From the IMG/VR virus record IMGVR_UViG_3300024270_000054: a stretch of DNA of 14,208 nucleotides, one strand, 5' to 3'. The notes beneath the pieces are model-generated. The model was not told the DNA's origin. It made no database searches and worked only from the letters and a program-made list of their open reading frames with translations. The position numbers and the translations under genes are program-made. Positions 1,487 to 14,118 of this stretch are shown here, in pieces; position 1 is the first letter of the stretch; every line of letters starts with the position of its first letter. Origin of the DNA: a virus. Taxonomy: Duplodnaviria; Heunggongvirae; Uroviricota; Caudoviricetes.

Positions 1487-1511
1487 AAAAAGACCGGCAA
1501 TTAACCGGTCT
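1487..1511 (-). terminator. Intrinsic terminator after the aspartyl protease gene
   Basis: Minus strand AGACCGG-TTAATTG-CCGGTCT then TTTT, starting at the stop codon. Confidence 0.65.
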
Positions 1512-1941
1512 AAGTTTCAGCGCAAAAATCTATCGCACCTTTGGACGGATATCTAATTGAAAAGAACACACGCCCATTTTCTGAACTGATTACAGAATCG
1601 AAGTGTCTTATCACATCCATACCAAGAATCATATCCTCAGTATTTTCAGGACTCAGTTTTCTAACCAAAACGTCTTCAAATATAGCGAAGTCGAAAACCT
1701 GTATTGTTACAATGTGCCTCGTTGTAGAATAACAATTGGACGCACTTGTACACATAGAAACACCATAATCTTTGAGCAATAAGGCGTTGACGGCTGTCTC
1801 TGATATATGAGACGATCCTGCGCCTGTGTCCCATAAAGCTTTCGCATCATAATACCTTTCACCTGCATACAAGCGGACATCTACATAAATTCTATCCGCC
1901 TTTCCGGGCAAGACAAGCGTACAAGCATTGCTTTGAGACAT
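1510..1941 (-). CDS. Retropepsin-like (single-domain, retroviral-type) aspartyl protease, 143 aa
   Basis: Catalytic ALWDTGA motif, C-terminal ILGMD motif and GGAG RBS. Hand-counted GC 37% in 1561-1740. Confidence 0.85.
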   Translation of the reverse strand: MSQSNACTLVLPGKADRIYVDVRLYAGERYYDAKALWDTGAGSSHISETAVNALLLKDYGVSMCTSASNCYSTTRHIVTIQVFDFAIFEDVLVRKLSPENTEDMILGMDVIRHFDSVISSENGRVFFSIRYPSKGAIDFCAET

Positions 1942-2310: not shown

Positions 2311-2718
2311 TTATTCCTTCACAGTCCACAGCGCTTCAGTGCCGACCGCACCCGGCTCCCATACGTTGTTGTCAACAGCGCTCTCATAGGTCACGCCATT
2401 ATGCGTCACAACGTCGCCCTTCATATACGGGTTTGTGCTGCCCGGCTGCTCCCACTCAGGAACAATATTCTCGTCCGGAATGAGCACCTTCGCCCAAAGG
2501 CTCGGCGCAGCATCCGGAGTCCATGTCTCCTGAGACGTATGCGCCGTCAGGCAACGATAAAGGACGCCTGCGTACTTCACGCGAGCGTCCACCGCGTATT
2601 CAGTTTCGTTTGCCCATTCTGGGAAAAGTGTTACGGCGGTCAGTGCAATCTTGTCTTCAACGGATTGCATCGCCTGTTCAATAATTCTGCGGTAGTGCAG
2701 TGCCTGTTCTCTTGTCAT
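2311..2718 (-). CDS. Carbohydrate-binding protein with two CBM5/12 (chitin-binding type 3)-like modules
   Basis: FPEWANETEYAVDARVKYAGVLYRC..HTSQ..WTP..APSLW and PEWEQP..NPYMKGDVVTHNGVTYES....NVWEPG....LW. AAGGAG RBS. Confidence 0.85.
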   Translation of the reverse strand: MTREQALHYRRIIEQAMQSVEDKIALTAVTLFPEWANETEYAVDARVKYAGVLYRCLTAHTSQETWTPDAAPSLWAKVLIPDENIVPEWEQPGSTNPYMKGDVVTHNGVTYESAVDNNVWEPGAVGTEALWTVKE

Positions 2719-3045: not shown

Positions 3046-3455
3046 CCTTTCATAATTAGTTTTCTGATATATTCAAGATCGCTGATTTCAGCGTTGTAAA
3101 AATCGTAGTTCCAAACCCAGTCGTCTTCATGCTCCGGGCGCTTGTATTTAAGGCACGTTTCGTCCTCCCAAATCTTGCCCCATACATGAGCATACCTGCT
3201 GTCGCTGACTTTAAGCTTCCTGAGTCTTTTCAAAATGTCCTGCGTCAGTTCGCCGCGTTTAAGGCCGCTTCCGTCATCATTCTGCGCGAAGTAGTCGTAG
3301 GCATTCTGGCTCGTAACGCTGCAAATGCGTCCCTGCGGGAACAGGATGAATCCGTTTACGGCATGCACCTTTGCCCCATAGGGCAGGGCAATGTCGCCGC
3401 AGATGGCTCGTCCTTCAAATTTCTTGATGACAATATAAGTATCATATTGTTTCAT
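3042..3455 (-). CDS. Hypothetical protein (137 aa) overlapping the 3' end of the DGR RT
   Basis: AGGAG RBS 6 nt before ATG 3455, 14-nt overlap with RT. Distinctive ICSVTSQNAYDYFAQNDDGSGLKRG and KYKRPEHEDDWVWNYDFYNA segments. Confidence 0.8.
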   Translation of the reverse strand: MKQYDTYIVIKKFEGRAICGDIALPYGAKVHAVNGFILFPQGRICSVTSQNAYDYFAQNDDGSGLKRGELTQDILKRLRKLKVSDSRYAHVWGKIWEDETCLKYKRPEHEDDWVWNYDFYNAEISDLEYIRKLIMKG

Positions 3456-3461
3456 ATTGTT
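3442..3461 (-). repeat. Perfect 10-bp tandem duplication (AACAATATGA x2)
   Basis: + strand tcatattgtt at 3442-3451 and 3452-3461. One copy carries the downstream ATG, the other the RT stop. Confidence 0.9.
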
Positions 3462-4842
3462 CTCCTGTGTGATAATCTCTGCGAATTTCCCGCAGTTTGT
3501 CGTATGCTCTTGCGCGTCTGCTTCTCGGTCTGCATCCTTCTCGTTTAATCACCGGGATAAATGATGCGGTTTTCTGGCTTTGAAGCTGCCTGATCTTGTC
3601 AAGTAGATCCTGTTTGGAATCGGAATATACCCATCCGAATTCATTGTGCCATGTTCCGCGAAGCGTACACTTGAAAGCAAGTCTGTATTCTGAAAGTTCT
3701 TTAGCGAAGATAGAGCAAAACAATTGGTCTGTTGAATGAAGCGTGCGAAAGCTGTTGCATCGTCTGGCGTGGGCTCTCCATGATTGATAAGAGGCAAAGC
3801 AGTCATCTGTGTCGAATCTTCCTGCGTCCATCCATCCTCTGAAAATGTGAAGCTTTCTGCGTATAGCGCGGATGCTTTGCCTGCTCAGTTTCATCGTCAC
3901 TTTGCCGTTTTCCTCAAGCCGTATGCGCAGCTTGAGAAATCGGAAACTGTGGCTTTTCAGCGGAGTGATTTTGCACTTCTTTTCGTTCAGCTCCATGCCG
4001 ATGGACTTTGTAAATTCCGTCAGCCTACGATGAAGCTCTTTGAGCTTATCGATGGATTCGCAGATCACATATCCGTCGTCCATGTATCGCGCATAATGCT
4101 TGAACCCAAGAACGTCTTTGATAAAGTGATCGACCGGACTGGCGTAATCAAGTGCAATATTCTGCGATACCTGACTGCCAAGCCCAACGCCGCATGACTG
4201 TCCATCGATATAAATCACGTCGCTCATCTCCCTGAAATCGTCGATGAGCTGACAGCCGAGCTTTTGCAGCCGCTCGTCCCAAATGTGTTCTTTGAGTCTT
4301 TCCTTTGCATGCTCATGGGGAATAGAGCCGAAATAGTTCTTGAAGTCAAACTGATAAATGCCGCCGTTAAGTCCATGCTTGCGGTAGTGCTTTTGCAGAT
4401 GACTTTTGAGCCTGCGCAGCGTCATGTCCATACCCTTACCGGGCAGGCTTGCGCTGTTGTCGTAGATGAAGCTTCTGGAATATGCCTCCGTCATAATCTG
4501 GTCACAGAAGCATTTCTGCACCGTGCGATCCTGTATCGTCAACGCATTGATGCTTCTCAGTTTTCCGTGTTCAACGGTGTTAAAGTGCTTGAATCCTTTG
4601 AATTTGTAGGTATCATTGTGCAGCGCGTCATAAAGCTTCTGCGTCTCGCGCACAAGATGGGTTTCAAAGTGGATCGTCGATGCTTTCCATCTGACGCCCT
4701 TGCAGCATCCCCTTGCTGCGTCCAGCAGGTTTTCAAATGTGAATACTTCGTCAAATGTTTTCCCGCAGACTGTTGCTGCCTTTTTCATTCGTTTTGCTTT
4801 TCGCCGCTGATAGCGGCGCTCATGTCTCTCTTCGCTGTTCAT
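3442..4842 (-). CDS. DGR reverse transcriptase (466 aa)
   Basis: RT motifs IQDRTVQ, DNSASLPGKG, FDFKNYFGSIPH, GVGLGSQVSQ, RYMDD (YMDD at 4086-4075), GMELNEKK and FRFLK. Lies directly downstream of avd and TR. Confidence 0.95.
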   Translation of the reverse strand: MNSEERHERRYQRRKAKRMKKAATVCGKTFDEVFTFENLLDAARGCCKGVRWKASTIHFETHLVRETQKLYDALHNDTYKFKGFKHFNTVEHGKLRSINALTIQDRTVQKCFCDQIMTEAYSRSFIYDNSASLPGKGMDMTLRRLKSHLQKHYRKHGLNGGIYQFDFKNYFGSIPHEHAKERLKEHIWDERLQKLGCQLIDDFREMSDVIYIDGQSCGVGLGSQVSQNIALDYASPVDHFIKDVLGFKHYARYMDDGYVICESIDKLKELHRRLTEFTKSIGMELNEKKCKITPLKSHSFRFLKLRIRLEENGKVTMKLSRQSIRAIRRKLHIFRGWMDAGRFDTDDCFASYQSWRAHARRCNSFRTLHSTDQLFCSIFAKELSEYRLAFKCTLRGTWHNEFGWVYSDSKQDLLDKIRQLQSQKTASFIPVIKREGCRPRSRRARAYDKLREIRRDYHTGEQYETI

Positions 4843-5238
4843 ATATAAAGTAATCTTCCTGTATAGCTGTATTCTGGCTTGTAACTACGTAACTCAGCGC
4901 CCATGAAACCTAAGCCGCCAGTGGCATAAGGCCATGCAAGAAGCGTCCGGACGCTGGTATCAGAAAGCTGTTTTAGGGTTGCCTTTCGGCAAGCGCCAAG
5001 GTGTATGCCCTCCCTCTGTCAAAGGATATGGTTTTCGCTCATCGCTACTCAGTCGAATCCTCGGTCTGTATACCATAGACACAGGCCGTGCCAAGAGTCT
5101 GTCGCCACGCCATTGCAATTGTTCGCGTTGTTATTGTTCGCACTGCCGTTGGTGTTCACATTGCAGAAATTGTTCGAGTTGGTCGCATTCGTCGAACGCA
5201 GCCACCAGTTAGCGGTAACAGGGCATAACCTGAAGAAG
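4843..5238 (-). ncRNA. Putative DGR template RNA (5' leader + TR + 3' spacer)
   Basis: Non-coding avd-RT interval containing TR, a leader/spacer complementary helix (5220-5231 with 4999-5011), a TTGCC-GAAA-GGCAA hairpin (4979-4992) and a 14-bp palindrome (4942-4955). Exact ends unknown. Confidence 0.75.
5096..5216 (-). repeat. DGR template repeat (TR)
   Basis: Aligns without gaps to 5778-5898 (offset 682). In the VR frame it reads TANWWLRSTNATNSNNFCNVNTNGSANNNNANNCNGVATD, with 15 AAC/AAT codons. Confidence 0.97.
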
Positions 5239-5685
5239 TCATTTCGTGTATTGTCTGTATCTTTCGATATCGGAGGTCATGACGGCTTTGATCAAAACAG
5301 ATTCCTTGTTGAGATATTCAGCCCATGCTTCAAACACCTTCGCAGCGTCTTCCTTGCTTCCAAAGAAATTGTTTCCTTCAAGCAGGAATGTCAGCGTCAC
5401 GGTAAGCAAACTGCTCATTGAGAAAATTGCCGAACGCGCTTTGATCAGGTGTTCTCTTCGCATGTTAAATTCCATTTCGGATATGCCCTTGTGGACATAG
5501 ATGGAATTGGCACGCATAATATTGTCGTGTATTTCAATAGATAGCCGCAGGATTTCATCTGCAAAGATAAATCGCTGCGCTTTGGGGAATTTCTTGATTT
5601 GCCTTGCCGTATATACGGTTAAATCCTGTGCAACTTTCAGAAATTCCACCTTGGATTCTTTTCGTTTGGATGCATAAACCGACAT
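5239..5685 (-). CDS. avd: DGR accessory variability determinant (Avd-like four-helix-bundle protein, 148 aa)
   Basis: Position between target and TR, size, helical character and MSVYASKRKESKVEF...FPKAQRF start typical of Avd homologues. Confidence 0.85.
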   Translation of the reverse strand: MSVYASKRKESKVEFLKVAQDLTVYTARQIKKFPKAQRFIFADEILRLSIEIHDNIMRANSIYVHKGISEMEFNMRREHLIKARSAIFSMSSLLTVTLTFLLEGNNFFGSKEDAAKVFEAWAEYLNKESVLIKAVMTSDIERYRQYTK

Positions 5686-5710
5686 GATATTTTCCTTTCG
5701 TTCATGTCCA

Positions 5711-5751
5711 CATCCCTCCCGGTACAGGCTCCCGCCTATACCTTCGGGATG
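5711..5751 (-). promoter_or_regulatory. DGR target-recognition hairpin/cruciform downstream of VR
   Basis: Minus strand GGTATAGGC-GGGA-GCCTGTACC (5742-5721; 9 bp with one G-T) plus outer stem CATCCC/GGGATG. No U-tract. Confidence 0.75.
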
Positions 5752-5766
5752 GGGTAGATCAGTAGA

Positions 5767-7203
5767 TTAGACACAGAAGGCCGGCGCCACGCCAAAGCAA
5801 CCGGTCGCGCCGGTAGCGGACGCACTGCCGGCGGTGTTCACAAGGCAGAAATAGGACGAGTAGGTCGCACGCGTCGAACGCAGCCACCACGGAGCGGTCG
5901 ATGTATTCGCGCTGTGTCGATAGAACACTCTGCTGTTACCATTTGCGTAGTACGCATATCTCTGCTGATAGTTTTGTTCTGCGCTGTTTGCATAAGTTCT
6001 AGCACCTTGTACTTCCCATTCGGAAAGCAGCCAGAGATAATCGGTCGTCGCCGTTACATAGGAAGCAGTATCCTTACCGCCGCCTGTATTGTCGGAATAC
6101 TTGGTGCATCCACGCATGACGCCACGCAGTTCTACGGGGAGTGCGGCCAGCAGGCTTCCTTCAAGCGGTTCAGATGGGAGATAATTGCTGCCCAGAAGGA
6201 CAGTGCGCATCTTACTTGCATTCCATCCGCCGCTATTGGAGTTGGTGTAGTTCATATTGAAGTAACCAGCCGTGTTGCTGACGGAAGAATTGTATTTGGA
6301 GTCGATCAGGCACAGATTCTTACCGGAAGTCTGCGCAGACTTGCCGATCTGGAAGTGAATTGTTCCCTCACCCTCATAGGTCGGATTATGATCAAAACCA
6401 AGGATGAACGCCCAGATGGACAGATTATCAAATGTCGTCAGGCCAACAGTTCCGTTGATGATAATCTCCTTCGTATCGCCGACTGCAAAATAGTTCGCAG
6501 CAAGACTGGAAGCGGACAGAACGGAAATGGTTGTCCAGTCGTTGTCGTTGAGAACGGGCTGAACCTCACCATTGAAGATTTCAATATACTTTGCTTTGTG
6601 CGTCTGAACGCCAGCATTGTACGTCCATTCCTGACCGTCAATCTCGCAGCTCACAGTCCACGTGCCGCGCTCATAAACGGTGAAATAATGTGCGCCCGTG
6701 CCTGTAGATGTGTAGGTCTTCGTGCCATTGGTACACGTAACCGTGGTGGAAACGTCGCCCATCACGTAGCAGCCAACGGTCGCTTCAAAGAAGATGAGCT
6801 TCACGTTGTCAGCGCCCTTCAGGTTGCCCGTACCCTCGTCTGCAACACGATCTCCGCTTGTACCGTTTACCGTCCAAGTGCCGTCGCTTGGCACGCTCAG
6901 GAATACTTCGCCATTTGACAGTGTACCCGTCACGGTATCCGTACCGTTCGTCGCGGTAACAGAGCCAGTCTGAAGGTTAGAGGAAACAGACAGCAGCAGG
7001 CTATCCGTGTGATGCGGCCTTGTGCCTGTTACGCCAAAAATCTGTACGCCGTCAGCGATGTTGCTTGGGATGAAGTCTTCGTCGCCAGCTTCAAGGATGG
7101 CGTTCATCTCTACCGGCGTCATTTCATCCGTTGTGCCAGTCAGCTTCCTCATGCCGTCCGCCCATGCGGTCAGGGTATCTTTCTGAATCAGATAAGCATC
7201 CAT
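5767..7203 (-). CDS. DGR target: tail-fibre/receptor-binding protein with C-terminal DUF6273 (CLec-like) domain, 478 aa
   Basis: N-terminal YLIQKDTLTAWADGMR and PSNIADGVQIFGVTGT fibre motifs. Two tandem beta-sandwich repeats (VTATNGT..GTWTV, VTCTNGT..GTWTV). Then ILGFDHN..GGWNASKMR..LWLLSEWEV..WWLRS..GVAPAFCV. VR lies at the extreme C-terminus. Confidence 0.92.
   Translation of the reverse strand: MDAYLIQKDTLTAWADGMRKLTGTTDEMTPVEMNAILEAGDEDFIPSNIADGVQIFGVTGTRPHHTDSLLLSVSSNLQTGSVTATNGTDTVTGTLSNGEVFLSVPSDGTWTVNGTSGDRVADEGTGNLKGADNVKLIFFEATVGCYVMGDVSTTVTCTNGTKTYTSTGTGAHYFTVYERGTWTVSCEIDGQEWTYNAGVQTHKAKYIEIFNGEVQPVLNDNDWTTISVLSASSLAANYFAVGDTKEIIINGTVGLTTFDNLSIWAFILGFDHNPTYEGEGTIHFQIGKSAQTSGKNLCLIDSKYNSSVSNTAGYFNMNYTNSNSGGWNASKMRTVLLGSNYLPSEPLEGSLLAALPVELRGVMRGCTKYSDNTGGGKDTASYVTATTDYLWLLSEWEVQGARTYANSAEQNYQQRYAYYANGNSRVFYRHSANTSTAPWWLRSTRATYSSYFCLVNTAGSASATGATGCFGVAPAFCV
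5778..5898 (-). repeat. DGR variable repeat (VR)
   Basis: Encodes TAPWWLRSTRATYSSYFCLVNTAGSASATGATGCFGVAPA. 28 mismatches to TR over 121 nt, 27 of them at TR adenines. Confidence 0.97.
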
Positions 7204-7781
7204 CAGAAGCTCACCTCCTCAGCATTTTCAAGCGCCTGCGCAGCCCACGCGCCGGAGCTGTTCACGCACAGGAACTTGCCTGCGTCGCTTGCGGTAACGC
7301 TTGGCAGCAGTTTTGCGCGGATGTCGCTGTGCGCACTGGTATTTGTGTTGTGCGCGGAAACAGCAGAAGATGCCGTGCCGGATGCATCAGCGCCGACTTC
7401 ACTTGCTGTATAGCTCGGCTTGCTCGCCGCTTTCGCCCAAGATGGAACGGTCGGGTCGGTTTCCGTGTGCCCCGTAATAAACCCGCTGTCGTTTGTAAGC
7501 TGGCTCGTTTTGCTTGGAATCGTCGGCAGGTTTTTAAGATCGCTGTATTCGCCGCTCAGTGCAACCTCGGCAAGAGCCGCCATTACAGCGTCATCGCAGA
7601 ACGGAAGCGCATTCACGTTCTTTGTTCCGTCGCCGATCTTCATACGCTCGTAGTCGTAATCGGCATCGATATCATAGATGATCACTTCGCCCTTGAGCGG
7701 CGTGAAGTTCGTGGCCTTTGCCCAGTTTGCAGCGGTGTCATGCTTGCAGACCAAGCGGCCATAGATTCGTTTTTCACTCAT
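7203..7781 (-). CDS. Tail-fibre protein with Mtd_N/hyaluronidase-N-like N-terminal domain (192 aa)
   Basis: RLVCKHDTAANW..PLKGEVIIY..KIGDGTKNVNALPF, then shaft motifs SGEYSDLKNLP, TSQLTNDSGFIT, ETDPTVPSWAK and AHNTNTSAHSDIR. TGATG coupling to the DGR target. Confidence 0.8.
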   Translation of the reverse strand: MSEKRIYGRLVCKHDTAANWAKATNFTPLKGEVIIYDIDADYDYERMKIGDGTKNVNALPFCDDAVMAALAEVALSGEYSDLKNLPTIPSKTSQLTNDSGFITGHTETDPTVPSWAKAASKPSYTASEVGADASGTASSAVSAHNTNTSAHSDIRAKLLPSVTASDAGKFLCVNSSGAWAAQALENAEEVSF

Positions 7782-8277: not shown

Positions 8278-11200
8278 TCAGATACAGAATCCAAAGGCGA
8301 TGCCAAGGTTCTGAGCAGACGCGCCAATGTTGCTCGGATCGCCCATAGAACCGATGTACCTATAATAGTGCATCATTTCAAGTCCCGTTGAGCGCGTCCA
8401 GTAGCTCTTCAGTCCGCCGCCTGCATTCTGCTTCTTGCGGCTTTCTGCGTTGGTGTATACTGGATACGGTTCACCCTGTCCAACCATAACGGAGTTGGCA
8501 ACTTCCGCATTCAGCTCTCGGTCGGATGGGAGCCACAGCGTATCCGTGGTTTCGTTAAGCGCCTTGTCATAGAAGCCAAGGTCGCTGACCTTGATGACGG
8601 GCTTAATCACCTGCTGCAGTTCCGCTGGCATTGCGGCAAACAGCGTCTCCTGCATCCATGTGCGAAGGTCTGCGCTTCCCCAGCCGCCGACGTTCAGCGC
8701 CTTGGAACCCGTAGCCTCAGAGACATGCTGCGTCTGGTTCATGATGCGTGCCGTGTTGCCCATGATCTTGCAGATAAACGTCAGCGCAGCGGTATCTTTG
8801 CCGCCGTTGTAGCTGTCGCTCACGGTCGCCAGCTTGTCGTGGTTGTGACCGACAATTTCCATCTCAACTTTGTTTTCAACGCCGCCCACGGTGTAAGTCA
8901 TTACCTTGCGTCCGCCAAGGCCGTATGCGCTCACATCGCCGTTTTGCGCAGCCGCCGCAATGGTCGCCCAATCATCGTTAATGTAGCCGTCAAAGGCAAA
9001 CTGCGCATAGTAATACGTAATGCCCGTGATCGGCACGTCGGGGGATGGAGACCAGCCGGAGAATTCATGATACGGAGAAGCGGTTTCACCGATCATCTTG
9101 TAAATCTGCGTCGTGTCGCCTACAAACACCGGGCATTCTCCGTAGAATGTCATGCACTCCTGCTCAAGCTTGTTATCGTTGTAGAAATAGCACTTGTAGC
9201 TGCGCAGAATCTCTTCAAATACCGGCTTGAGGACAAGCGGGGTAGTGACAACGCTGAAATCGCGATCCCACTTGGTATACTCGTAGGTATATTGAGCAGT
9301 CTCCTTCTTCGTCGGCTTTGCCATCGTTCCAGCAAGAATCGGGTCGGTAGCCGCATTTCCTTCGACAATCCATTGAGACTCAGCAATCTCGCCGTCATTG
9401 TCACAGAAATCAACGCGATATGTACCGGTGTACTTGGCGACAATGTGATACGGCTTGGTGACACTTGACGGCATCTCAGACCAACCGGCATACACATACG
9501 TTGCCGTCTCCGTATCCGGACGAACAGGCTGCGTAATGTGACCAGCGGTAATCGGGTTAATCGCCGCATCGCCCTCATTACAGATGTAGCGATACAGAAG
9601 CTTGTTGTCGTAGTTCACATAGCGAACAAAGAACTTCGCTGTGCCTCCGGCAACGACAACCAAAGCGGGGAATACGTCGTTGATCTCTTCAAGCAGCGCA
9701 TCGGAAATGCTGTCCACATATACACGTCCTTCGACCACGGCGAGATCCGTGTTGTTGCCGATAGCGTCCATACCGATGCATTCCTTGAGCTTTTCATACG
9801 TTGTGCGCAGTGTTTCTTCGCTTGTCGCGTTCCATTCAACGCCGGACAGACGTACGCGGTCGAGGAGAGGTGCGTTGCATACAATGCTCTCAATGTCAAT
9901 TCCCGGCGTATTCTCAATGCGAAGCGTCGTCAGGTTATCGACACCTTCAAGCACGACGGTTTCAAGATTCTTCTGGTTCTGGATCGTCAGGTTCGCCAGC
10001 GTCGCCGGAAGCTCGATGCGCTTGAGGTGTCCGCCGTTTGGCAGGCTGATGCCCGTCAGCTTCGTTCCTTTTGCCAGAATGGTTTCAAGGCCGTGGCATC
10101 CAGAGGCGTCGATTGTCGTCAGCTTTTCGCTTGTACAGTTCTGGATGTTGATCAGCGTCAGCAGTTCGTTGTTGCCGACATCAAGGGAATAGAGGTTCGG
10201 ATTTTCATATCCTTCTGCATCGGAGCCAAGAATGATTTCCTGAAGCTTTGTTGCAGAGGAGAAGACGGCGAGACCTACCATGAGATGAGAAAGGTCGCCA
10301 ACGGAAGCGATGCGGTCTGCGGAATAGATGTAGACTTCAGTATCGTTCATCTGATCCAGCGGACATTCCATCGTGTAGGTTTCGTTGCGGTATCCTCTGT
10401 TGGTTACGGTCGCGCTGCCGAACTTGATGCGCGGCCAGATGTGGCTGTATGGGGTAACATCGATATTGCCCGTATCATAGCAGCGCAGGGTGATGTAGTT
10501 GGTATTTGCTTCACCCGCCTGATGTTTGCTATCGCGGAACTTAAAGCCATTGAAGAGCCAGAAATCACGCTGCGCATCCTTGTCGCCCTGAAGCATTTCG
10601 AGGTAGTTTTCGCCTTTGACAAGGAACGGCTCAAGCCACTTCTTGTAGGCATCCTCGTTCCAGATTGCCTGCGGCCAAGTCTGCTGATGGTTGCGCATCT
10701 TGTCGCGGATCGTTTCATAACTCAGCGTTCCGGCATTACGAAGGGTCTGATACATTTCGGTGATTTCGTTCTTAAACGCATCGCGCACGTTGCACCAAAG
10801 AGCGCTGTGCTGTCCGTTGAAGACGTCTTCACCATTCACGGTATCTGTGTCTTCGAGGTTGTAGTCAAAGACAAGCTGTCCTTCGTTGTTGATACCAATT
10901 GCGGTATCCCAGTCGTAGGGGATAGGGAACCAGTGCTGACCGTCGAATGTGGTCAGGAACATGTTCTTCGCGCGGTTGTCAACCATCAGGAAGATTTCTG
11001 TGAAAAGGTAGTAGAACACGCAGGCGTCCTTGATCAGATACTGATCGAATTCATCCTTGAACTTCGCAAGACGCGCGGCCTTTTCTTCTTCGCTGTCCAC
11101 CAGCTCGCGGTTGCATTCAACCAGCCAATCGGTCAGGCGCTTAAACTGCGCGTAATCGCGGTACGGGTCGTCGAGGTCGGGGAAGCGTGCTTCAAAGTCG

Positions 11201-14118
11201 TCCGTCCAAGCCGGATATTCTTCACCCTTTTCGTCAATCGCCATCTGCTCGAATTCAGATTCCTTGAAGATCACGCGGTTGCTCGTATTGTTGCAGAATT
11301 CCCAGCATTCGCAGTTTGGATATACGTCGCGGTCAAAGCCGAATACGTTTTCGTTGCTCTTGTCGTCATTGAAATTGTACTTGGCGATGAACGTCACTTC
11401 GCCAGTGTTCGTATTCTGCCAGAATACGCAGCACGGGAAACCACGAACACCCTGACGCACACGATCATCAAGCTCCTGCGGCGGCGTCTTGTATGGGCAG
11501 TTCTGCTCGTAGTAGTCAACCAGCATAACGTTGTTCGCGCTCTCGCTGGAAGCGAAGTCTGCCTTCAGACAGATCGTCTCTCCCGGAAGACCGCCCTCAA
11601 AAATCGGGAACCCGTCTGTACTTTCTCCGGAGTTGGTATAAATCAGTCCGCTCTTGAGCGATACCTTATAGTTCTTCACCGGATACCCAGCAGAAGACGT
11701 GCCCTGAACGTCAAGCTGAACGCCGCTCGCAGTAAAGCTTCTTTCTGGATTCATCTGATCCACGAACGTCACAGATTTATTCTTTTTCTTGTCACCCTTA
11801 AACTGCGGAAGCTCCTCACACTCGATAATCATATAGGGGATGTTCATCGGAAGAGCACCAACCGTCACGTTCTTGTTTTCATCAAGGACGTCGTTGCGCT
11901 CATGCAGCGCCTTGCGCTCCGCCAGCGTAGAACGGTCGCAGATATAGTTATTGAGCTGTTCGTGACGGGTCAGACCCTTGTTGTAAATGCGCAGCACATA
12001 CAGGTCAAGACCGCAGCTCTCCGCACCAATAGTGATACCGACCGGGTTGCTCTGTGCAAAGTTGTCCGTGTCGGTGTACTGCGTCACGCCGCACATCACG
12101 CCGTTGATGTACACATACACAAAGCGGGAAAGGCTCTTCTGCTCAACGACAAACGTAATGCGTACCTTACTGTCTTCCTTAAACTGAACGGATACGCTGG
12201 ACTGCTCGGAGGAGAGCATCGCCTGTTGGCTCTTGATCATAAAGCCACGTCCACCGTTATAGGAAGTTGCCACGATAGAATCGTAGTCGCGCACGTTATG
12301 CGTCGCAAATTCTGCTTCAATGGTGTAACCGCTGGTGCGGAAGTCCTTTTCAAACGGCTTGTACGGAATAGTCATGAAGTCGTCTGGCAGGAAACGAAGC
12401 ACGGTATGTCCGTCCTTGTCTTCTACCCATCCGTCAGCGCCAGCCCAGCCAAATCCGCTGAATTCCGCTTCAATGTCGCCCTGAACCCAGCTATCCGGAT
12501 TGGCTTCGGAATTGCTGCGCCCAGCAGCAGTGAATTCAAGTGTCATGCTGTCCGTCAGAATCGTGCGGTCAAAGCTTGATTCGGACACCTGAACAACGAT
12601 GCTTTCCTTGGCATTGCCGCAGGAAATCTCAAATGTCGTTGCGCCGACAGGATAATCCTGTGTCACCCAAGTCTTTGGCGTTTGATCAATTTGAATTGTC
12701 TTTTCGCTGTATACAATACTGCCCTCGCGCAGAATCTTGAGCGTTACGTCCATGTTCTGTGAGAACGGATCATAGCACATGTAAGGGATAGTCAGCGTTT
12801 CTCCCTGTTGGATGCTTCCGCCGTCATGGTTAATCAGAACGGCCTGATCTGTCATCGTAGAAGAGTAGTACATCATGCCAATTCTCAAACGATTGGATTG
12901 AATGGTCAGCCCATCCGTCGTTACCTCAGCGTACATTTCAAAGATGTGTCCGCCGTCATATTGTGCGGGAATCGTATATGTACGACTTGAGTCAACAGCA
13001 GAAACGCTTTCTGTGCCAAGCTCATAACCGTCCATAATAAAATGAACTGTCTTCACACCTTGACCAGTCAGAACATAGGGGAGATAGACCGTTCCGGTAT
13101 ACAGATCCATATCGGCAGCGGTCGTGGTGATCGCCAGCGCAATAACGGTAACTTCGTATACCAGCGTCTTGCTCGTTCCCTCAGAGTTTTCAACGGTCAG
13201 CCTTACGTTATTAAGGCCATTGGAAAGATGGTTGGTGATGTCAATGGAGCTGCGTCCCTGTGCCACAGAAATAGATGCTTTCTTGACAGAGTTGACGGTA
13301 ATCGTACCAATACCGGCTCCATCGTCGATACCTTCGCTGTCGGTAGAAATATACTGAACATCCAGCACAACGTTTTCACCTTGAGCAACGGAAATGATAC
13401 GACTGTCCAGCATGTTTGTCAGCGTAACTGCATACATGCCGTCAGATCCCGTTCCGCCACCGCCGCCAGTGATCGTCACCGGATCGCCAACAGTCTCGCC
13501 TCCGCTTGTCAGCCATAGCTGGCTGTTTTCATATTTAAGACCGTCAACCATCTCGCCGACAAGGAAATCGCCAAGATTGTCTTTCAGGTCTGAAACTTCT
13601 TCGCCGATTGCGCGTACAGCGTCACCGGCAGTTGGATATGTCGTCCCGTCATGACCTGTGCGGATGTCAATCAGCTCAACATTGTCAGCAGGCGTACTTC
13701 CTTCAATCAGGGACTGTAAACGAGCTTCAAGCAGCGCAATATCGTCTTCAAGCTCAATTGTTTTCGTGTCAATCAGGTCTGCATTGGCGTTCAGGATTGC
13801 AACGTCAATCACGTCAGTATAGGCGGGCTTGGTCAGCATAAGCCTTTCCGTCGTTCCTGCGGCATCTCCCTCAGTCTTTCCGGAAATCCCGCCCCAAGTC
13901 TGAGCGGCGCTTTGTGCAGCGCTTCCGGCAGTCACATAAGCAAGGTCTTTCCAAGGAGTTTCGCCGTCGCCCACCTTTACTTTGGTCATATCAGAAGCAA
14001 ACTCAACGCCAATTTCGCCCCTCATCAGAACGACGGTTTCTTCAACCGCAGCCCAGTTCGCACTCGTGTCATTTCGCACAATAATGCGAGTGGCTAATTC
14101 ATTGATATTCATCGGCAT
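8278..14118 (-). CDS. Giant multidomain virion/adhesin protein (1946 aa): Mtd_N-like, Ig-like stalk, LamG-like, CotH-kinase-like, LRR, 3x InlB-B-like repeats, C-terminal DUF6273/CLec-like
   Basis: AAGGAG RBS. RNDTSANW..GEIGVE..KVGDGETPWKDLAY (about 14090-13932). LamG-like VYVYING..ITIG..LRIYNKGLT (about 12535-11970). LKADF..E, VDNRAKN and IPYDWDT (about 11800-10800). LRR-like run (about 10310-9820). Three repeats (9633-8998). IVGHNHD..GGWGSADLR..LWLPSDREL..YWTRS..GIAFGFCI (8986-8281). Confidence 0.9.
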   Translation of the reverse strand: MPMNINELATRIIVRNDTSANWAAVEETVVLMRGEIGVEFASDMTKVKVGDGETPWKDLAYVTAGSAAQSAAQTWGGISGKTEGDAAGTTERLMLTKPAYTDVIDVAILNANADLIDTKTIELEDDIALLEARLQSLIEGSTPADNVELIDIRTGHDGTTYPTAGDAVRAIGEEVSDLKDNLGDFLVGEMVDGLKYENSQLWLTSGGETVGDPVTITGGGGGTGSDGMYAVTLTNMLDSRIISVAQGENVVLDVQYISTDSEGIDDGAGIGTITVNSVKKASISVAQGRSSIDITNHLSNGLNNVRLTVENSEGTSKTLVYEVTVIALAITTTAADMDLYTGTVYLPYVLTGQGVKTVHFIMDGYELGTESVSAVDSSRTYTIPAQYDGGHIFEMYAEVTTDGLTIQSNRLRIGMMYYSSTMTDQAVLINHDGGSIQQGETLTIPYMCYDPFSQNMDVTLKILREGSIVYSEKTIQIDQTPKTWVTQDYPVGATTFEISCGNAKESIVVQVSESSFDRTILTDSMTLEFTAAGRSNSEANPDSWVQGDIEAEFSGFGWAGADGWVEDKDGHTVLRFLPDDFMTIPYKPFEKDFRTSGYTIEAEFATHNVRDYDSIVATSYNGGRGFMIKSQQAMLSSEQSSVSVQFKEDSKVRITFVVEQKSLSRFVYVYINGVMCGVTQYTDTDNFAQSNPVGITIGAESCGLDLYVLRIYNKGLTRHEQLNNYICDRSTLAERKALHERNDVLDENKNVTVGALPMNIPYMIIECEELPQFKGDKKKNKSVTFVDQMNPERSFTASGVQLDVQGTSSAGYPVKNYKVSLKSGLIYTNSGESTDGFPIFEGGLPGETICLKADFASSESANNVMLVDYYEQNCPYKTPPQELDDRVRQGVRGFPCCVFWQNTNTGEVTFIAKYNFNDDKSNENVFGFDRDVYPNCECWEFCNNTSNRVIFKESEFEQMAIDEKGEEYPAWTDDFEARFPDLDDPYRDYAQFKRLTDWLVECNRELVDSEEEKAARLAKFKDEFDQYLIKDACVFYYLFTEIFLMVDNRAKNMFLTTFDGQHWFPIPYDWDTAIGINNEGQLVFDYNLEDTDTVNGEDVFNGQHSALWCNVRDAFKNEITEMYQTLRNAGTLSYETIRDKMRNHQQTWPQAIWNEDAYKKWLEPFLVKGENYLEMLQGDKDAQRDFWLFNGFKFRDSKHQAGEANTNYITLRCYDTGNIDVTPYSHIWPRIKFGSATVTNRGYRNETYTMECPLDQMNDTEVYIYSADRIASVGDLSHLMVGLAVFSSATKLQEIILGSDAEGYENPNLYSLDVGNNELLTLINIQNCTSEKLTTIDASGCHGLETILAKGTKLTGISLPNGGHLKRIELPATLANLTIQNQKNLETVVLEGVDNLTTLRIENTPGIDIESIVCNAPLLDRVRLSGVEWNATSEETLRTTYEKLKECIGMDAIGNNTDLAVVEGRVYVDSISDALLEEINDVFPALVVVAGGTAKFFVRYVNYDNKLLYRYICNEGDAAINPITAGHITQPVRPDTETATYVYAGWSEMPSSVTKPYHIVAKYTGTYRVDFCDNDGEIAESQWIVEGNAATDPILAGTMAKPTKKETAQYTYEYTKWDRDFSVVTTPLVLKPVFEEILRSYKCYFYNDNKLEQECMTFYGECPVFVGDTTQIYKMIGETASPYHEFSGWSPSPDVPITGITYYYAQFAFDGYINDDWATIAAAAQNGDVSAYGLGGRKVMTYTVGGVENKVEMEIVGHNHDKLATVSDSYNGGKDTAALTFICKIMGNTARIMNQTQHVSEATGSKALNVGGWGSADLRTWMQETLFAAMPAELQQVIKPVIKVSDLGFYDKALNETTDTLWLPSDRELNAEVANSVMVGQGEPYPVYTNAESRKKQNAGGGLKSYWTRSTGLEMMHYYRYIGSMGDPSNIGASAQNLGIAFGFCI

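What the first reader, a model, noticed from the sequence alone, without database searches (positions are those of the whole stretch)
5096..5898. Complete and apparently functional DGR diversifying a phage receptor-binding tip
Seen: TR 5096-5207 versus VR 5778-5889 differ at 25 of 112 positions, all TR adenines (coding strand A>C 10, A>G 8, A>T 7), and at 0 of 77 non-A positions. RT (YMDD) and Avd are uninterrupted and the downstream hairpin is present. The 14 AAY codons in the core alone allow 15^14 (about 3e16) protein variants without stops. Established: mutagenic retrohoming as in BPP-1 mtd tropism switching. Zero non-A drift suggests recent activity. The system class is known, but this instance may be undescribed.
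Basis: partly seen in the sequence, partly recalled or inferred. Interest (0 to 1): 0.82.

Follow-up and report, generated by a model that had tools for sequence, protein, structure and literature searches.

The report
Active phage DGR rewriting a lectin-like tip
This is a complete diversity-generating retroelement in a gut phage or prophage. Near-identical copies from other metagenomes differ only at the adenine-templated codons of its target gene, so it has been active recently, but it is a well-known kind of system.

Summary
TR 5096-5207 and VR 5778-5889 differ at 25 of 112 positions, and all 25 are TR adenines on the coding (minus) strand (hypergeometric p about 3e-17).

Three corrections apply.
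- The diversified stretch runs further 5', to 5892 (codon 438).
- That extension contains one non-A mismatch, at 5890.
- The three 3'-most A differences (5784, 5782, 5780) are fixed in every natural VR. They look like an IMH versus IMH* difference, not mutagenesis.

All parts of a DGR are present on the minus strand: a 478-aa target with a DUF6273 / C-type-lectin-like end, a GC-rich IMH, a 9-bp hairpin with a GRNA loop, a divergent Avd, the TR, a structured spacer RNA and the RT. The spacer matches Rfam RT-2 and carries a covarying duplex that closes the TR into a loop. The RT has LGSQVSQ and YMDD.

I found 10 distinct VR peptides and 8 distinct VR DNAs on near-identical backbones. In one pair 21 of 21 differences over 1,647 nt lie in the VR, and in another 16 of 16 over 8,262 nt do.

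One VR allele is nevertheless shared by many samples of what looks like one campaign.

This is a new member of a known kind. Its nearest named relatives are the DUF6273-target DGRs of Faecalibacterium phages. The scan has already noted a near-identical copy on other DNA (e1-5429170).

The parts
5767..7203 (-). DGR target gene, 478 aa. It has an N-terminal helix, two beta-sandwich (Ig-like) domains at aa 67-213, and a C-terminal DUF6273 / C-type-lectin-like domain at aa 214-478.
   Evidence: Pfam DUF6273 scores 43 bits against a cutoff of 23.5; phrog_37900 E 1e-87. AlphaFold models have pLDDT 87 for the full protein and 93.6 for the C-domain. Fold matches include TvpA 2y3c (Z 6.1, 139 residues aligned, rmsd 4.3) and many C-type lectin domains at Z 4-5; the best match is 9qa6_A at Z 15.7. 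The start codon overlaps the stop of the upstream 192-aa gene.
5778..5898 (-). Variable repeat (VR) as a homology block, covering aa 436-476. The part seen to vary in nature is about 5795-5892 (aa 438-470).
   Evidence: Among 8 natural VR DNAs there are 37 variable columns, 33 of them at TR adenines. All 18 variable residues lie in A-containing TR codons, and every residue observed can be reached by changing only adenines.
5779..5793 (-). GC-rich 3' end of the VR (GGCGTGGCGCCGGCC), a candidate IMH. The TR counterpart at 5097-5111 reads GGCGTGGCGACAGAC (IMH*).
   Evidence: The three A-to-C/G/C differences are invariant in all natural VRs. Assignment as IMH is by analogy with BPP-1 (Guo 2011, PMC3240598).
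5721..5742 (-). Hairpin downstream of the VR and the stop codon: a 9-bp stem (GGTATAGGC / GCCTGTACC) with a 4-nt loop. An outer imperfect stem spans 5708-5754.
   Evidence: The inner stem is identical in three strain backbones, while the loop reads GGGA, GGAA or GAAA. All three fit the 5'-GRNA loop consensus of phage DGR hairpins, which have 7-10 bp stems and lie 4-34 bp from the VR (PMC3240598). Here the hairpin starts 35 nt after the end of homology. The fold z-score alone is weak (-1.55).
5239..5685 (-). Avd-like accessory gene, 148 aa, divergent.
   Evidence: PHROG 3206 'Avd protein of DGR' E 3e-9. NCBIfam DivGenRetAVD scores 22.6 bits, below its cutoff of 80. Pfam 23S_rRNA_IVP E 0.005, below cutoff. 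Atlas feature hits of 0.90-0.91 go to four-helix-bundle and Avd-like clusters. The position between target and TR is conserved in relatives with about 38-56% identical RTs.
5220..5231 (-). 5' strand (AGGTTATGCCCT) of a long-range duplex, lying just upstream of the TR.
   Evidence: It pairs with 4999-5011. Across 6 elements 70 of 72 cells are paired, against 11-42 when the partner is slid. Three different sequence versions occur, with compensatory changes at 6 of 12 pairs.
5096..5216 (-). Template repeat (TR), non-coding, between avd and the RT. It holds 38 A and 15 AAY codons in the VR frame.
   Evidence: The TR is identical in the same-strain contigs. A second strain carries GGTGGT instead of GGCAGT at 5144-5145, and that strain's VRs carry the same two bases, so non-A positions are copied faithfully.
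4834..5062 (-). Structured spacer RNA that fills the TR-to-RT gap; it matches Rfam RT-2 (RF03077).
   Evidence: 106.7 bits against a gathering score of 40, full-length model match. The same motif lies directly upstream of the RT in L019 and in the 56%-RT relatives L001, L006, L007, L028 and L030.
4999..5011 (-). 3' strand (AGGGCATACACCT, one bulged base) of the long-range duplex. Together with 5220-5231 it encloses the TR.
   Evidence: It matches the 'cPRT Stop' avd:Sp duplex of the Bordetella phage DGR RNA: 11 bp with one unpaired base, followed by a stem-loop and adenosines (Handa et al. preprint 10.1101/2023.10.23.563531).
4968..4992 (-). Stem-loop TTGCC-GAAA-GGCAA (4979-4992) followed by CCCTAAAACAG. 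These are the candidate stem-loop and adenosines of the cPRT Stop element.
   Evidence: Sequence and coordinates. The helix is part of the RT-2 consensus. The functional assignment is by analogy only.
3442..4842 (-). DGR reverse transcriptase, 466 aa.
   Evidence: Pfam RVT_1 65.9 bits; phrog_1423 E 5e-82. LGSQVSQ at aa 221 fits the DGR motif [ILV]GxxxSQ, and YMDD is at aa 253. Relatives with 56% identity also have TR/VR pairs with A-only mismatches.
8278..14118 (-). Context: a giant 1,946-aa tail-fibre-like protein whose C-terminus is a second DUF6273 domain that this TR does not template.
   Evidence: Sub-threshold Mtd_N at the N-terminus, sub-threshold Laminin_G_3, and DUF6273 at aa 1800-1929 (35.9 bits against a cutoff of 23.5). 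PHROG tail-fibre hits. Non-A identity to the TR is at noise level, 42%.
7203..7781 (-). Context: a 192-aa protein whose N-terminus carries the same weak, sub-threshold Mtd_N match as the giant protein's N-terminus. Its stop overlaps the target's start codon.
   Evidence: Pfam Mtd_N E 3.6e-4, below cutoff; phrog_19976 'tail assembly protein' E 1.5e-5.

Best explanation
A complete diversity-generating retroelement of a temperate gut phage or prophage, probably of Oscillospiraceae. It rewrites 18 or more codons (aa 438-470) on the C-terminal C-type-lectin-like (DUF6273) domain of a 478-aa virion-associated binding protein.

Shown here:
- The TR/VR pair has adenine-only mismatches.
- The RT is intact and carries the DGR motifs.
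- An Avd-like gene sits in the conserved position.
- A GC-rich IMH-like end and a GRNA-loop hairpin lie 3' of the VR.
- An RT-2-class structured spacer RNA fills the TR-RT gap, and a covarying duplex brackets the TR.
- Natural near-identical genomes differ only at A-templated VR positions.

Inferred from the Bordetella phage BPP-1 system:
- An avd-TR-spacer transcript binds RT-Avd.
- The spacer primes cDNA synthesis in cis, and the upstream:spacer duplex stops it at the 5' edge of the TR.
- Adenines are copied unfaithfully.
- The cDNA replaces the VR, with direction set by IMH/IMH* and the hairpin.

Also inferred: the varied surface binds a host-cell receptor, so the element shifts or widens adsorption specificity.
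For: 1. A-only mismatches: 25 of 25 in the core, 27 of 28 over 121 nt, p about 3e-17 to 4e-17.
2. The 90%-identity cluster of the target protein has 13 members with 10 distinct VR peptides. All 18 variable positions fall in A-containing TR codons, and none of the 19 codons without A varies. All 15 residues reachable from AAY are seen, with Tyr, Asn and Ser commonest.
3. At DNA level there are 8 distinct VRs. 33 of 37 variable columns are at TR-A (p about 5e-20). One further column follows a TR allele, which shows faithful copying of non-A bases.
4. Backbone identity: window versus L018 has 21 of 21 differences inside the VR over 1,647 nt. L019 versus L024 has 16 of 16 over 8,262 nt. L019 versus L027 has 13 of 14 over 8,434 nt.
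5. RT motifs LGSQVSQ and YMDD. Gene order target-avd-TR-RT is conserved in relatives, and relatives have A-only TR/VR pairs.
6. RT-2 RNA match at 106.7 bits spanning the spacer. The duplex closing the TR is paired in 70 of 72 cells and has compensatory changes, matching the cPRT Stop described for BPP-1 and predicted in 207 of 278 DGRs.
7. The hairpin stem is conserved while the loop varies only within GRNA.
8. The target's C-domain has a C-type-lectin-like fold, including a match to the DGR variable protein TvpA. The neighbouring genes look like tail fibres.
Against: - The same VR allele occurs unchanged in six JGI contigs from six samples and in the contigs of three Logan runs. Turnover is therefore not visible at consensus level within that campaign.
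- No raw reads were available, so within-population polymorphism was not measured.
- Avd does not reach the curated cutoffs of Pfam or NCBIfam, and a profile search of solved structures found no Avd.
- L015 pairs a strain-2 TR with the window's VR, which gives non-A mismatches. This is most simply a chimeric assembly or a recombinant.
- No promoter or terminator signal rises above chance.
- Nothing here shows that the protein sits on the virion or binds a receptor.
Confidence: 0.9

Rival explanations
1. The element is intact and was active in the lineage's recent past. In the population this window comes from it is quiescent: a passively replicating prophage with a VR allele that is fixed or held by selection.
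For: The VR is identical in L012-L017, six JGI samples, and in contigs of runs X1, X2 and X5. The exact target protein sits on 12 contigs. Other alleles are also shared between samples: P0003 in 3 samples and P0004 in at least 2.
Against: L018 has a backbone identical to the window over 1,647 nt but a VR differing at 21 positions. Its JGI identifiers suggest the same sample series (my inference from the numbering). Contigs hide minor variants. Strong selection can mask ongoing diversification, a point also made in PMC8144416.
Confidence: 0.2
2. The DGR is real, but the target is not the host-receptor-binding tail tip. It could be a decoration or adhesin protein (Ig-like domains plus a lectin-like head) that binds something else, such as mucus glycans or other cells, as has been debated for tentaclins and Hoc-like DGR targets.
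For: The target lacks the weak, sub-threshold Mtd_N match that the two neighbouring fibre-like proteins give at their N-termini. It has two Ig-like beta-sandwich domains. The phage already carries a giant fibre with its own non-diversified DUF6273 tip. The best structural match of the head is the N-terminal domain of a gut-bacterial IgA peptidase. Alternative roles are discussed in PMC10743442.
Against: The gene sits inside the tail-fibre block and is translationally coupled to a fibre-like gene. Viral DGR targets are mostly tail proteins (PMC8144416). The closest named homologues are the DUF6273 targets of Faecalibacterium phages.
Confidence: 0.25
3. The VR diversity arises without reverse transcription, by recombination or gene conversion between strains or paralogous DUF6273 domains, and the TR is merely a degenerate pseudo-copy.
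For: Several strains co-occur in the same metagenomes. A paralogous DUF6273 domain exists 2.4 kb away. L015 looks recombinant or chimeric.
Against: Recombination cannot confine 33 of 37 variable columns to positions that are A in a non-coding repeat (p about 5e-20), and it cannot produce 8 unrelated VRs on backbones that are otherwise identical over 8 kb. The paralogue shows no nucleotide similarity to the TR or VR. The TR is conserved while the VRs vary.
Confidence: 0.01

Closest known systems
DGRs of Faecalibacterium phages Taranis / Pioen / Roos (DUF6273-domain targets; PMC11792537)
   Same: Both are gut Bacillota temperate phages. The target ends in DUF6273 with the VR at its C-terminus, and the order VR-bearing target then RT is seen in the tblastn hits to those phages. 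The target C-domain is 47-49% identical and the RT 36%. The paper reports the same architecture.
   Different: It is only distantly related: no nucleotide-level match and RT identity of 36%. The N-terminal part of the target differs, since only aa 213-478 align. This phage has a 1,946-aa fibre with a second, untemplated DUF6273 tip.
Bordetella phage BPP-1 DGR (mtd-avd-TR-brt), the prototype
   Same: Gene order is target-avd-TR-spacer-RT. Mutagenesis is adenine-specific. There is a GC-rich IMH at the 3' end of the VR and a hairpin with a 4-nt GRNA loop downstream. An upstream:spacer duplex with one unpaired base is followed by a stem-loop and adenosines. The variable domain has a C-type-lectin fold.
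   Different: The target is not an Mtd homologue by sequence: it has no Mtd_N domain, and Mtd was absent from the listed fold matches. The spacer RNA belongs to Rfam RT-2, whereas BPP-1's TR-RT region carries RT-10. Avd is 148 aa and too divergent for the curated models. The hairpin stem is less GC-rich (5 of 9 pairs) and lies 35 nt from the end of homology.
Treponema denticola TvpA (2y3c), a DGR variable protein
   Same: The C-terminal domain of the model superposes on TvpA with Z 6.1, 139 residues aligned and rmsd 4.3. The VR lies in the C-terminal strands of a C-type-lectin / FGE-like fold.
   Different: Sequence identity is 12%. TvpA is a bacterial lipoprotein, not a phage protein. The structural similarity is at fold level only.
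Tentaclins (phages nd4 / nd12; PMC10743442)
   Same: They are DGR-diversified C-lectin plus Ig-like domain proteins of gut phages, with a Tyr/Ser-rich selected repertoire. Phage nd12's RT is 34% identical.
   Different: The topology is reversed. [quoted passage not shown] Here the Ig-like domains come first and the lectin-like domain with the VR is C-terminal.
Rfam RT-2 RNA motif (RF03077; Weinberg et al. 2017, PMC5737381)
   Same: Full-length match at 106.7 bits immediately upstream of the RT gene.
   Different: The original paper tied only RT-10 to a DGR and left the other RT motifs as possible retron or DGR parts. Here RT-2 is the TR-RT spacer of a DGR with natural evidence of activity. A stretch that is unpaired in the Rfam consensus pairs with the leader upstream of the TR.

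Membership tests
Diversity-generating retroelement (DGR) | A TR/VR repeat pair whose mismatches are confined to TR adenines | tested here: met
   25 of 25 in the core and 27 of 28 over 121 nt; p about 3e-17.
Diversity-generating retroelement (DGR) | An RT of the DGR clade, with [ILV]GxxxSQ in motif 4 and a YxDD catalytic motif | tested here: met
   LGSQVSQ at aa 221 and YMDD at aa 253; RVT_1 and phrog_1423. No phylogenetic placement was made.
Diversity-generating retroelement (DGR) | The VR lies at the 3' end of a target ORF on a C-type-lectin-type fold | tested here: met
   The VR covers aa 436-476 of 478. DUF6273 is above its cutoff. The fold matches TvpA at Z 6.1 and many CTLDs at Z 4-5.
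Diversity-generating retroelement (DGR) | An accessory protein (Avd or HRDC type) next to the TR | tested here: inconclusive
   PHROG Avd E 3e-9, but NCBIfam scores 22.6 bits against a cutoff of 80 and Pfam is below cutoff. No solved-structure match by profile. The position is conserved. Atlas hits are leads only. No structure prediction was made for it.
Diversity-generating retroelement (DGR) | Target-site elements: a GC-rich IMH that differs from IMH*, and a downstream hairpin with a 4-nt GRNA loop | tested here: met
   IMH 5779-5793 versus IMH* 5097-5111, with differences fixed in all VRs. The hairpin is conserved with loops GGGA, GGAA and GAAA, fitting the consensus in PMC3240598. Function was not tested.
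Diversity-generating retroelement (DGR) | A DGR RNA with a structured spacer and an upstream:spacer duplex (cPRT Stop) | tested here: met
   RT-2 match. The 12-bp duplex is paired in 70 of 72 cells and has compensatory changes at 6 pairs. The priming adenosine was not identified.
Diversity-generating retroelement (DGR) | Actual mutagenic retrohoming (VR turnover) | tested here: met
   Natural variants: 8 VR DNAs and 10 VR peptides on near-identical backbones, with differences confined to the VR. This is comparative evidence, not an experiment.
DUF6273 (PF19789) DGR-target family | A Pfam model match above the gathering score, with the VR at the C-terminal end of the domain | tested here: met
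   43 bits against 23.5, aa 369-478. More than 4,000 homologues carry PF19789.
Mtd (BPP-1 major tropism determinant) family | An Mtd_N domain and sequence or fold similarity to Mtd (1YU0) | tested here: inconclusive
   The target has no Mtd_N hit. The profile search of solved structures found nothing. Mtd is not among the listed fold matches, which does not exclude it. I do not file the target as an Mtd homologue.
Tentaclins | An N-terminal C-lec domain bearing the VR, followed by Ig-like domains with a C-terminal anchor Ig domain | tested here: not met
   The domain order in the model is the reverse: Ig-like at 67-213 and lectin-like at 214-478, with the VR at the C-terminus. The definition is from PMC10743442.

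The most novel reading that the evidence does not exclude
The Rfam RT-2 motif, whose function was left open when it was described, is the accessory (spacer) RNA of a large clade of gut Bacillota phage DGRs. Its nominally unpaired linker forms a covarying 'cPRT Stop' duplex with the leader just upstream of the TR. This gives a second DGR RNA architecture, independent of Bordetella and supported by sequence covariation, that could be tested biochemically.
Probability: 0.75. Interest if true: 0.45.

Novelty: new member of a known kind. Interest (0 to 1): 0.4.

Why it matters
This is a clean natural example of a working DGR. The same phage backbone, identical over up to 8 kb, carries unrelated binding-site sequences in different gut samples, which is the signature of targeted hypermutation of a binding protein.

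It adds little conceptually, because DGRs with DUF6273 targets are common in gut phages and have been catalogued at scale.

Two things are useful to specialists. First, it links the orphan Rfam RT-2 RNA to a DGR with evidence of activity. Second, it supplies covariation support, in a phage distant from Bordetella, for the TR-enclosing duplex recently seen by cryo-EM. The set of natural VR alleles also gives a small selected repertoire (Tyr, Asn and Ser rich) for a lectin-like domain whose ligand is unknown.

Tried and rejected
- **Phage records:** megablast of 3400-7300 found nothing.
- **Whole genome:** none is held for this window.
- **Exact-pattern scans:** a VR-flank 31-mer and a TR 35-mer gave no hits in viral contigs or metagenome contigs, although exact-protein look-ups later found many carriers.
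- **Run X7 in read laying:** contigs stop at 5757 and resume at 5877, leaving the VR uncovered at low depth. This could reflect VR heterogeneity, but a hole proves nothing, so I do not use it as evidence.
- **Extra depth over the TR in read laying:** the high summed depth over 5120-5207 comes from other contigs with 14-18 differences, which are other DGR repeats in the same metagenomes and not variants of this VR.
- **Second VR:** no second VR for this TR exists in the window. The giant protein's DUF6273 tip matches non-A TR positions only at noise level. A remote VR elsewhere in the phage genome could not be searched.
- **Whole-protein Foldseek:** it returned only Ig-like and pilin matches for the middle domains. 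A domain-level model was needed.
- **Profile searches of solved structures:** nothing useful for the target or for Avd.
- **Promoter and terminator scan:** counts were at chance level.
- **The 137-aa ORF overlapping the RT stop:** it is not conserved next to the RT in relatives, apart from one partial match, so I do not count it as a DGR part.
- **Literature search for 'RT-2' together with DGR:** no paper found.
Full report
**Anatomy**

All genes in the window run on the minus strand. In coding order they are:
- a 1,946-aa tail-fibre-like protein (8278-14118)
- a 114-aa ORF
- a 192-aa protein with a fibre-type N-terminus (7203-7781)
- the 478-aa target (5767-7203)
- an Avd-like gene (5239-5685)
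- the non-coding TR (5096-5216)
- a 253-nt spacer
- the reverse transcriptase (3442-4842)
- small ORFs, including a 135-aa protein with a double CBM_5_12 domain

**The observation**

An ungapped comparison of 5096-5207 with 5778-5889 gives 25 mismatches in 112 positions. All 25 are at TR adenines on the coding strand (A>C 10, A>G 8, A>T 7), and none of the 77 non-A positions differs. With 35 A in 112 positions, the chance of this is about 3e-17.

The repeat finder reports the pair independently as 121 nt, 5096-5216 / 5778-5898. The extra nine bases add two A>C changes and one C>G, at VR 5890. No other place in the window matches the TR at its non-A positions; the best other site reaches 42-49%, which is noise.

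**Is it active? Evidence from natural relatives**

Run contigs:
- The 6-kb region is held almost whole by seven 2018 animal faecal metagenome runs.
- Their contigs cover the VR without a single difference in three runs.
- Contigs hide minor variants, so this shows only that one allele dominates there.

Same-strain contigs:
- An exact-protein look-up found the Avd on 24 or more contigs.
- Six of these, from six JGI samples, carry exactly the window's VR.

Protein cluster:
- The 90%-identity cluster of the target protein has 13 members.
- These members carry 10 different VR peptides.
- All 18 variable residues lie between aa 438 and 470, in codons that contain A in the TR.
- Every residue observed can be reached by changing only adenines.
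- None of the 19 codons without A varies.

DNA fetched for eight alleles:
- Among the 8 VRs there are 37 variable columns, and 33 of them are TR adenines (p about 5e-20).
- One of the other four columns follows a TR polymorphism. A second strain's TR reads GGTGGT instead of GGCAGT, and its VRs carry the same two bases, so non-A positions are copied faithfully.
- The remaining three columns are single changes in single alleles.

Backbone comparisons are the strongest result:

| Pair | Shared nt | Differences | Inside the VR |
|---|---|---|---|
| window vs L018 | 1,647 | 21 | 21 |
| L019 vs L024 | 8,262 | 16 | 16 |
| L019 vs L027 | 8,434 | 14 | 13 |

The element has therefore rewritten its VR on a time scale over which the rest of the phage accumulated essentially no substitutions. 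Single alleles can nevertheless persist across several samples.

**Boundaries**
- The A at 5898 never varies.
- At the 3' end, the A differences at 5784, 5782 and 5780 are the same in all alleles. They sit in the GC-rich block GGCGTGGCGCCGGCC (5779-5793), whose TR counterpart is GGCGTGGCGACAGAC.
- This is the arrangement expected of IMH versus IMH* in BPP-1.
- The repertoire rests on 15 AAY codons plus five other A-containing codons, and no substitution at A can make a stop.
- At the AAY sites, all 15 possible residues occur among the natural alleles: Tyr 20%, Asn 18%, Ser 16%.

**Target-site hairpin**

Thirty-five nucleotides after the end of homology, and after the stop codon, lies a 9-bp stem (5742-5734 / 5729-5721) with a 4-nt loop, inside a longer imperfect stem. 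Its folding z-score is unremarkable (-1.55).

In three strain backbones the stem is unchanged while the loop reads GGGA, GGAA or GAAA. All three fit the 5'-GRNA consensus that Guo et al. found for phage DGR hairpins, which have 7-10 bp stems and 4-nt loops and lie 4-34 bp from the VR (PMC3240598).

**Enzyme and accessory protein**
- The RT has RVT_1 and a strong PHROG match. It carries the DGR-type LGSQVSQ motif and YMDD.
- The 148-aa protein between target and TR matches the PHROG 'Avd protein of DGR' (E 3e-9).
- That protein stays below the curated cutoffs of Pfam and NCBIfam.
- Its position is conserved in relatives whose RTs are about 38-56% identical.
- I call it a divergent Avd, with its fold untested.

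**The RNA**

The whole TR-RT spacer matches Rfam RT-2 (RF03077) at 106.7 bits. So do the spacers of five related elements. Weinberg et al. linked only RT-10 to a DGR and speculated about the other RT motifs (PMC5737381).

A consensus fold of six elements predicts a 12-bp duplex between the leader just 5' of the TR (5231-5220) and a spacer segment (5011-4999) that the Rfam model leaves unpaired.
- 70 of 72 cells are paired, against 11-42 when the partner is slid.
- Three different sequence versions occur.
- Six of the 12 pairs show compensatory changes.
- The elements represent only about three independent lineages, so the covariation is real but shallow.

The duplex has one bulged base and is followed by a GAAA-capped stem-loop and an A-run. 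This matches the 'cPRT Stop' seen by cryo-EM in the Bordetella phage RNP and predicted in 207 of 278 DGRs (preprint 10.1101/2023.10.23.563531).

**The target protein**
- The full model (pLDDT 87) shows an N-terminal helix, two beta-sandwich domains and a C-terminal domain.
- The domain model has pLDDT 93.6.
- Further matches are the DGR variable protein TvpA (Z 6.1), FGE-like proteins and dozens of C-type lectin domains.
- The family is large: more than 4,000 homologues, all with PF19789.
- The closest named proteins are the DUF6273 DGR targets of Faecalibacterium phages Taranis, Pioen and Roos and of Dulem virus 34, at 47-57% identity over aa 213-478. Their VRs map to the same place (PMC11792537).
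- Binding of a host receptor is inferred from the fold and the tail-module context only.

**Host and setting**
- RT relatives at 56% identity lie in MAGs labelled Oscillospiraceae and Oscillibacter, plus one bin labelled Desulfovibrio, and in IMG/VR contigs.
- Carriers are animal gut and faecal metagenomes.

**Verdict**

This is a genuine, complete and recently active DGR. It is a new member of a well-known kind. Large catalogues show such elements to be common and broadly active (PMC8144416). This scan has already noted a near-identical copy on other DNA (e1-5429170) and dozens of DUF6273-type DGR targets.

I rate interest at 0.4. The credit is for the clean natural evidence of activity and for tying RT-2 and the TR-enclosing duplex to a working DGR.

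Noticed in passing
window 8281-9102 (-), C-terminus of the 1,946-aa protein: There is a second DUF6273 domain, paralogous to the DGR target's head, with no nucleotide match to the TR. The phage therefore carries one diversified and one constant lectin-like tip.
   Followed up: partly
target aa 214-478 (window 5767-6564): The best structural match of the DUF6273 head is the N-terminal domain (residues 32-282) of the Thomasclavelia ramosa IgA peptidase, 9qa6_A (Z 15.7, 21% identity). This suggests the protease carries a DUF6273-like binding domain.
   Followed up: no
window 5929-5931 (codon 425 of the target, AGA): One ENA contig encodes a 424-aa version of the target (P0012). It is identical up to residue 424 and has unchanged gene spacing, so it is probably an AGA-to-TGA nonsense change that removes the whole VR. 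No DNA was available to check.
   Followed up: partly
L015 (JGI 3300018494), equivalent to window 5144-5222: This contig combines the strain-2 TR allele (GGTGGT) with the window's VR and avd. Strain-2 alleles run from 5222 downstream into the RT. It is either an assembly chimera of two co-occurring strains or a natural recombinant with a breakpoint between the TR leader and avd.
   Followed up: partly
window 3477-3766 (3' part of the RT gene): L012 and L013 differ from the window at about 30 clustered positions here, including a compensating +1/-1 indel pair at 3602-3604, while the rest of the locus is identical. RT relatives align only to aa 1-406, so the C-terminal tail of about 60 aa is variable.
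   Followed up: no
window 1510-1941 (-): A 143-aa ORF has sub-threshold matches to retropepsin-type aspartyl protease families (gag-asp_proteas E 1.4e-5).
   Followed up: no
window 2311-2718 (-): A 135-aa protein with two CBM_5_12 carbohydrate-binding modules lies two genes downstream of the RT. A 49% identical homologue follows the RT in L006.
   Followed up: no
L001, L005-L007, L009, L028, L029, L031, L032: All nine related loci tested (RT identity 38-56%) have their own TR/VR pair, with 10-16 A mismatches and no non-A mismatch in a 70-nt window. The whole clade therefore appears to hold intact DGRs.
   Followed up: partly
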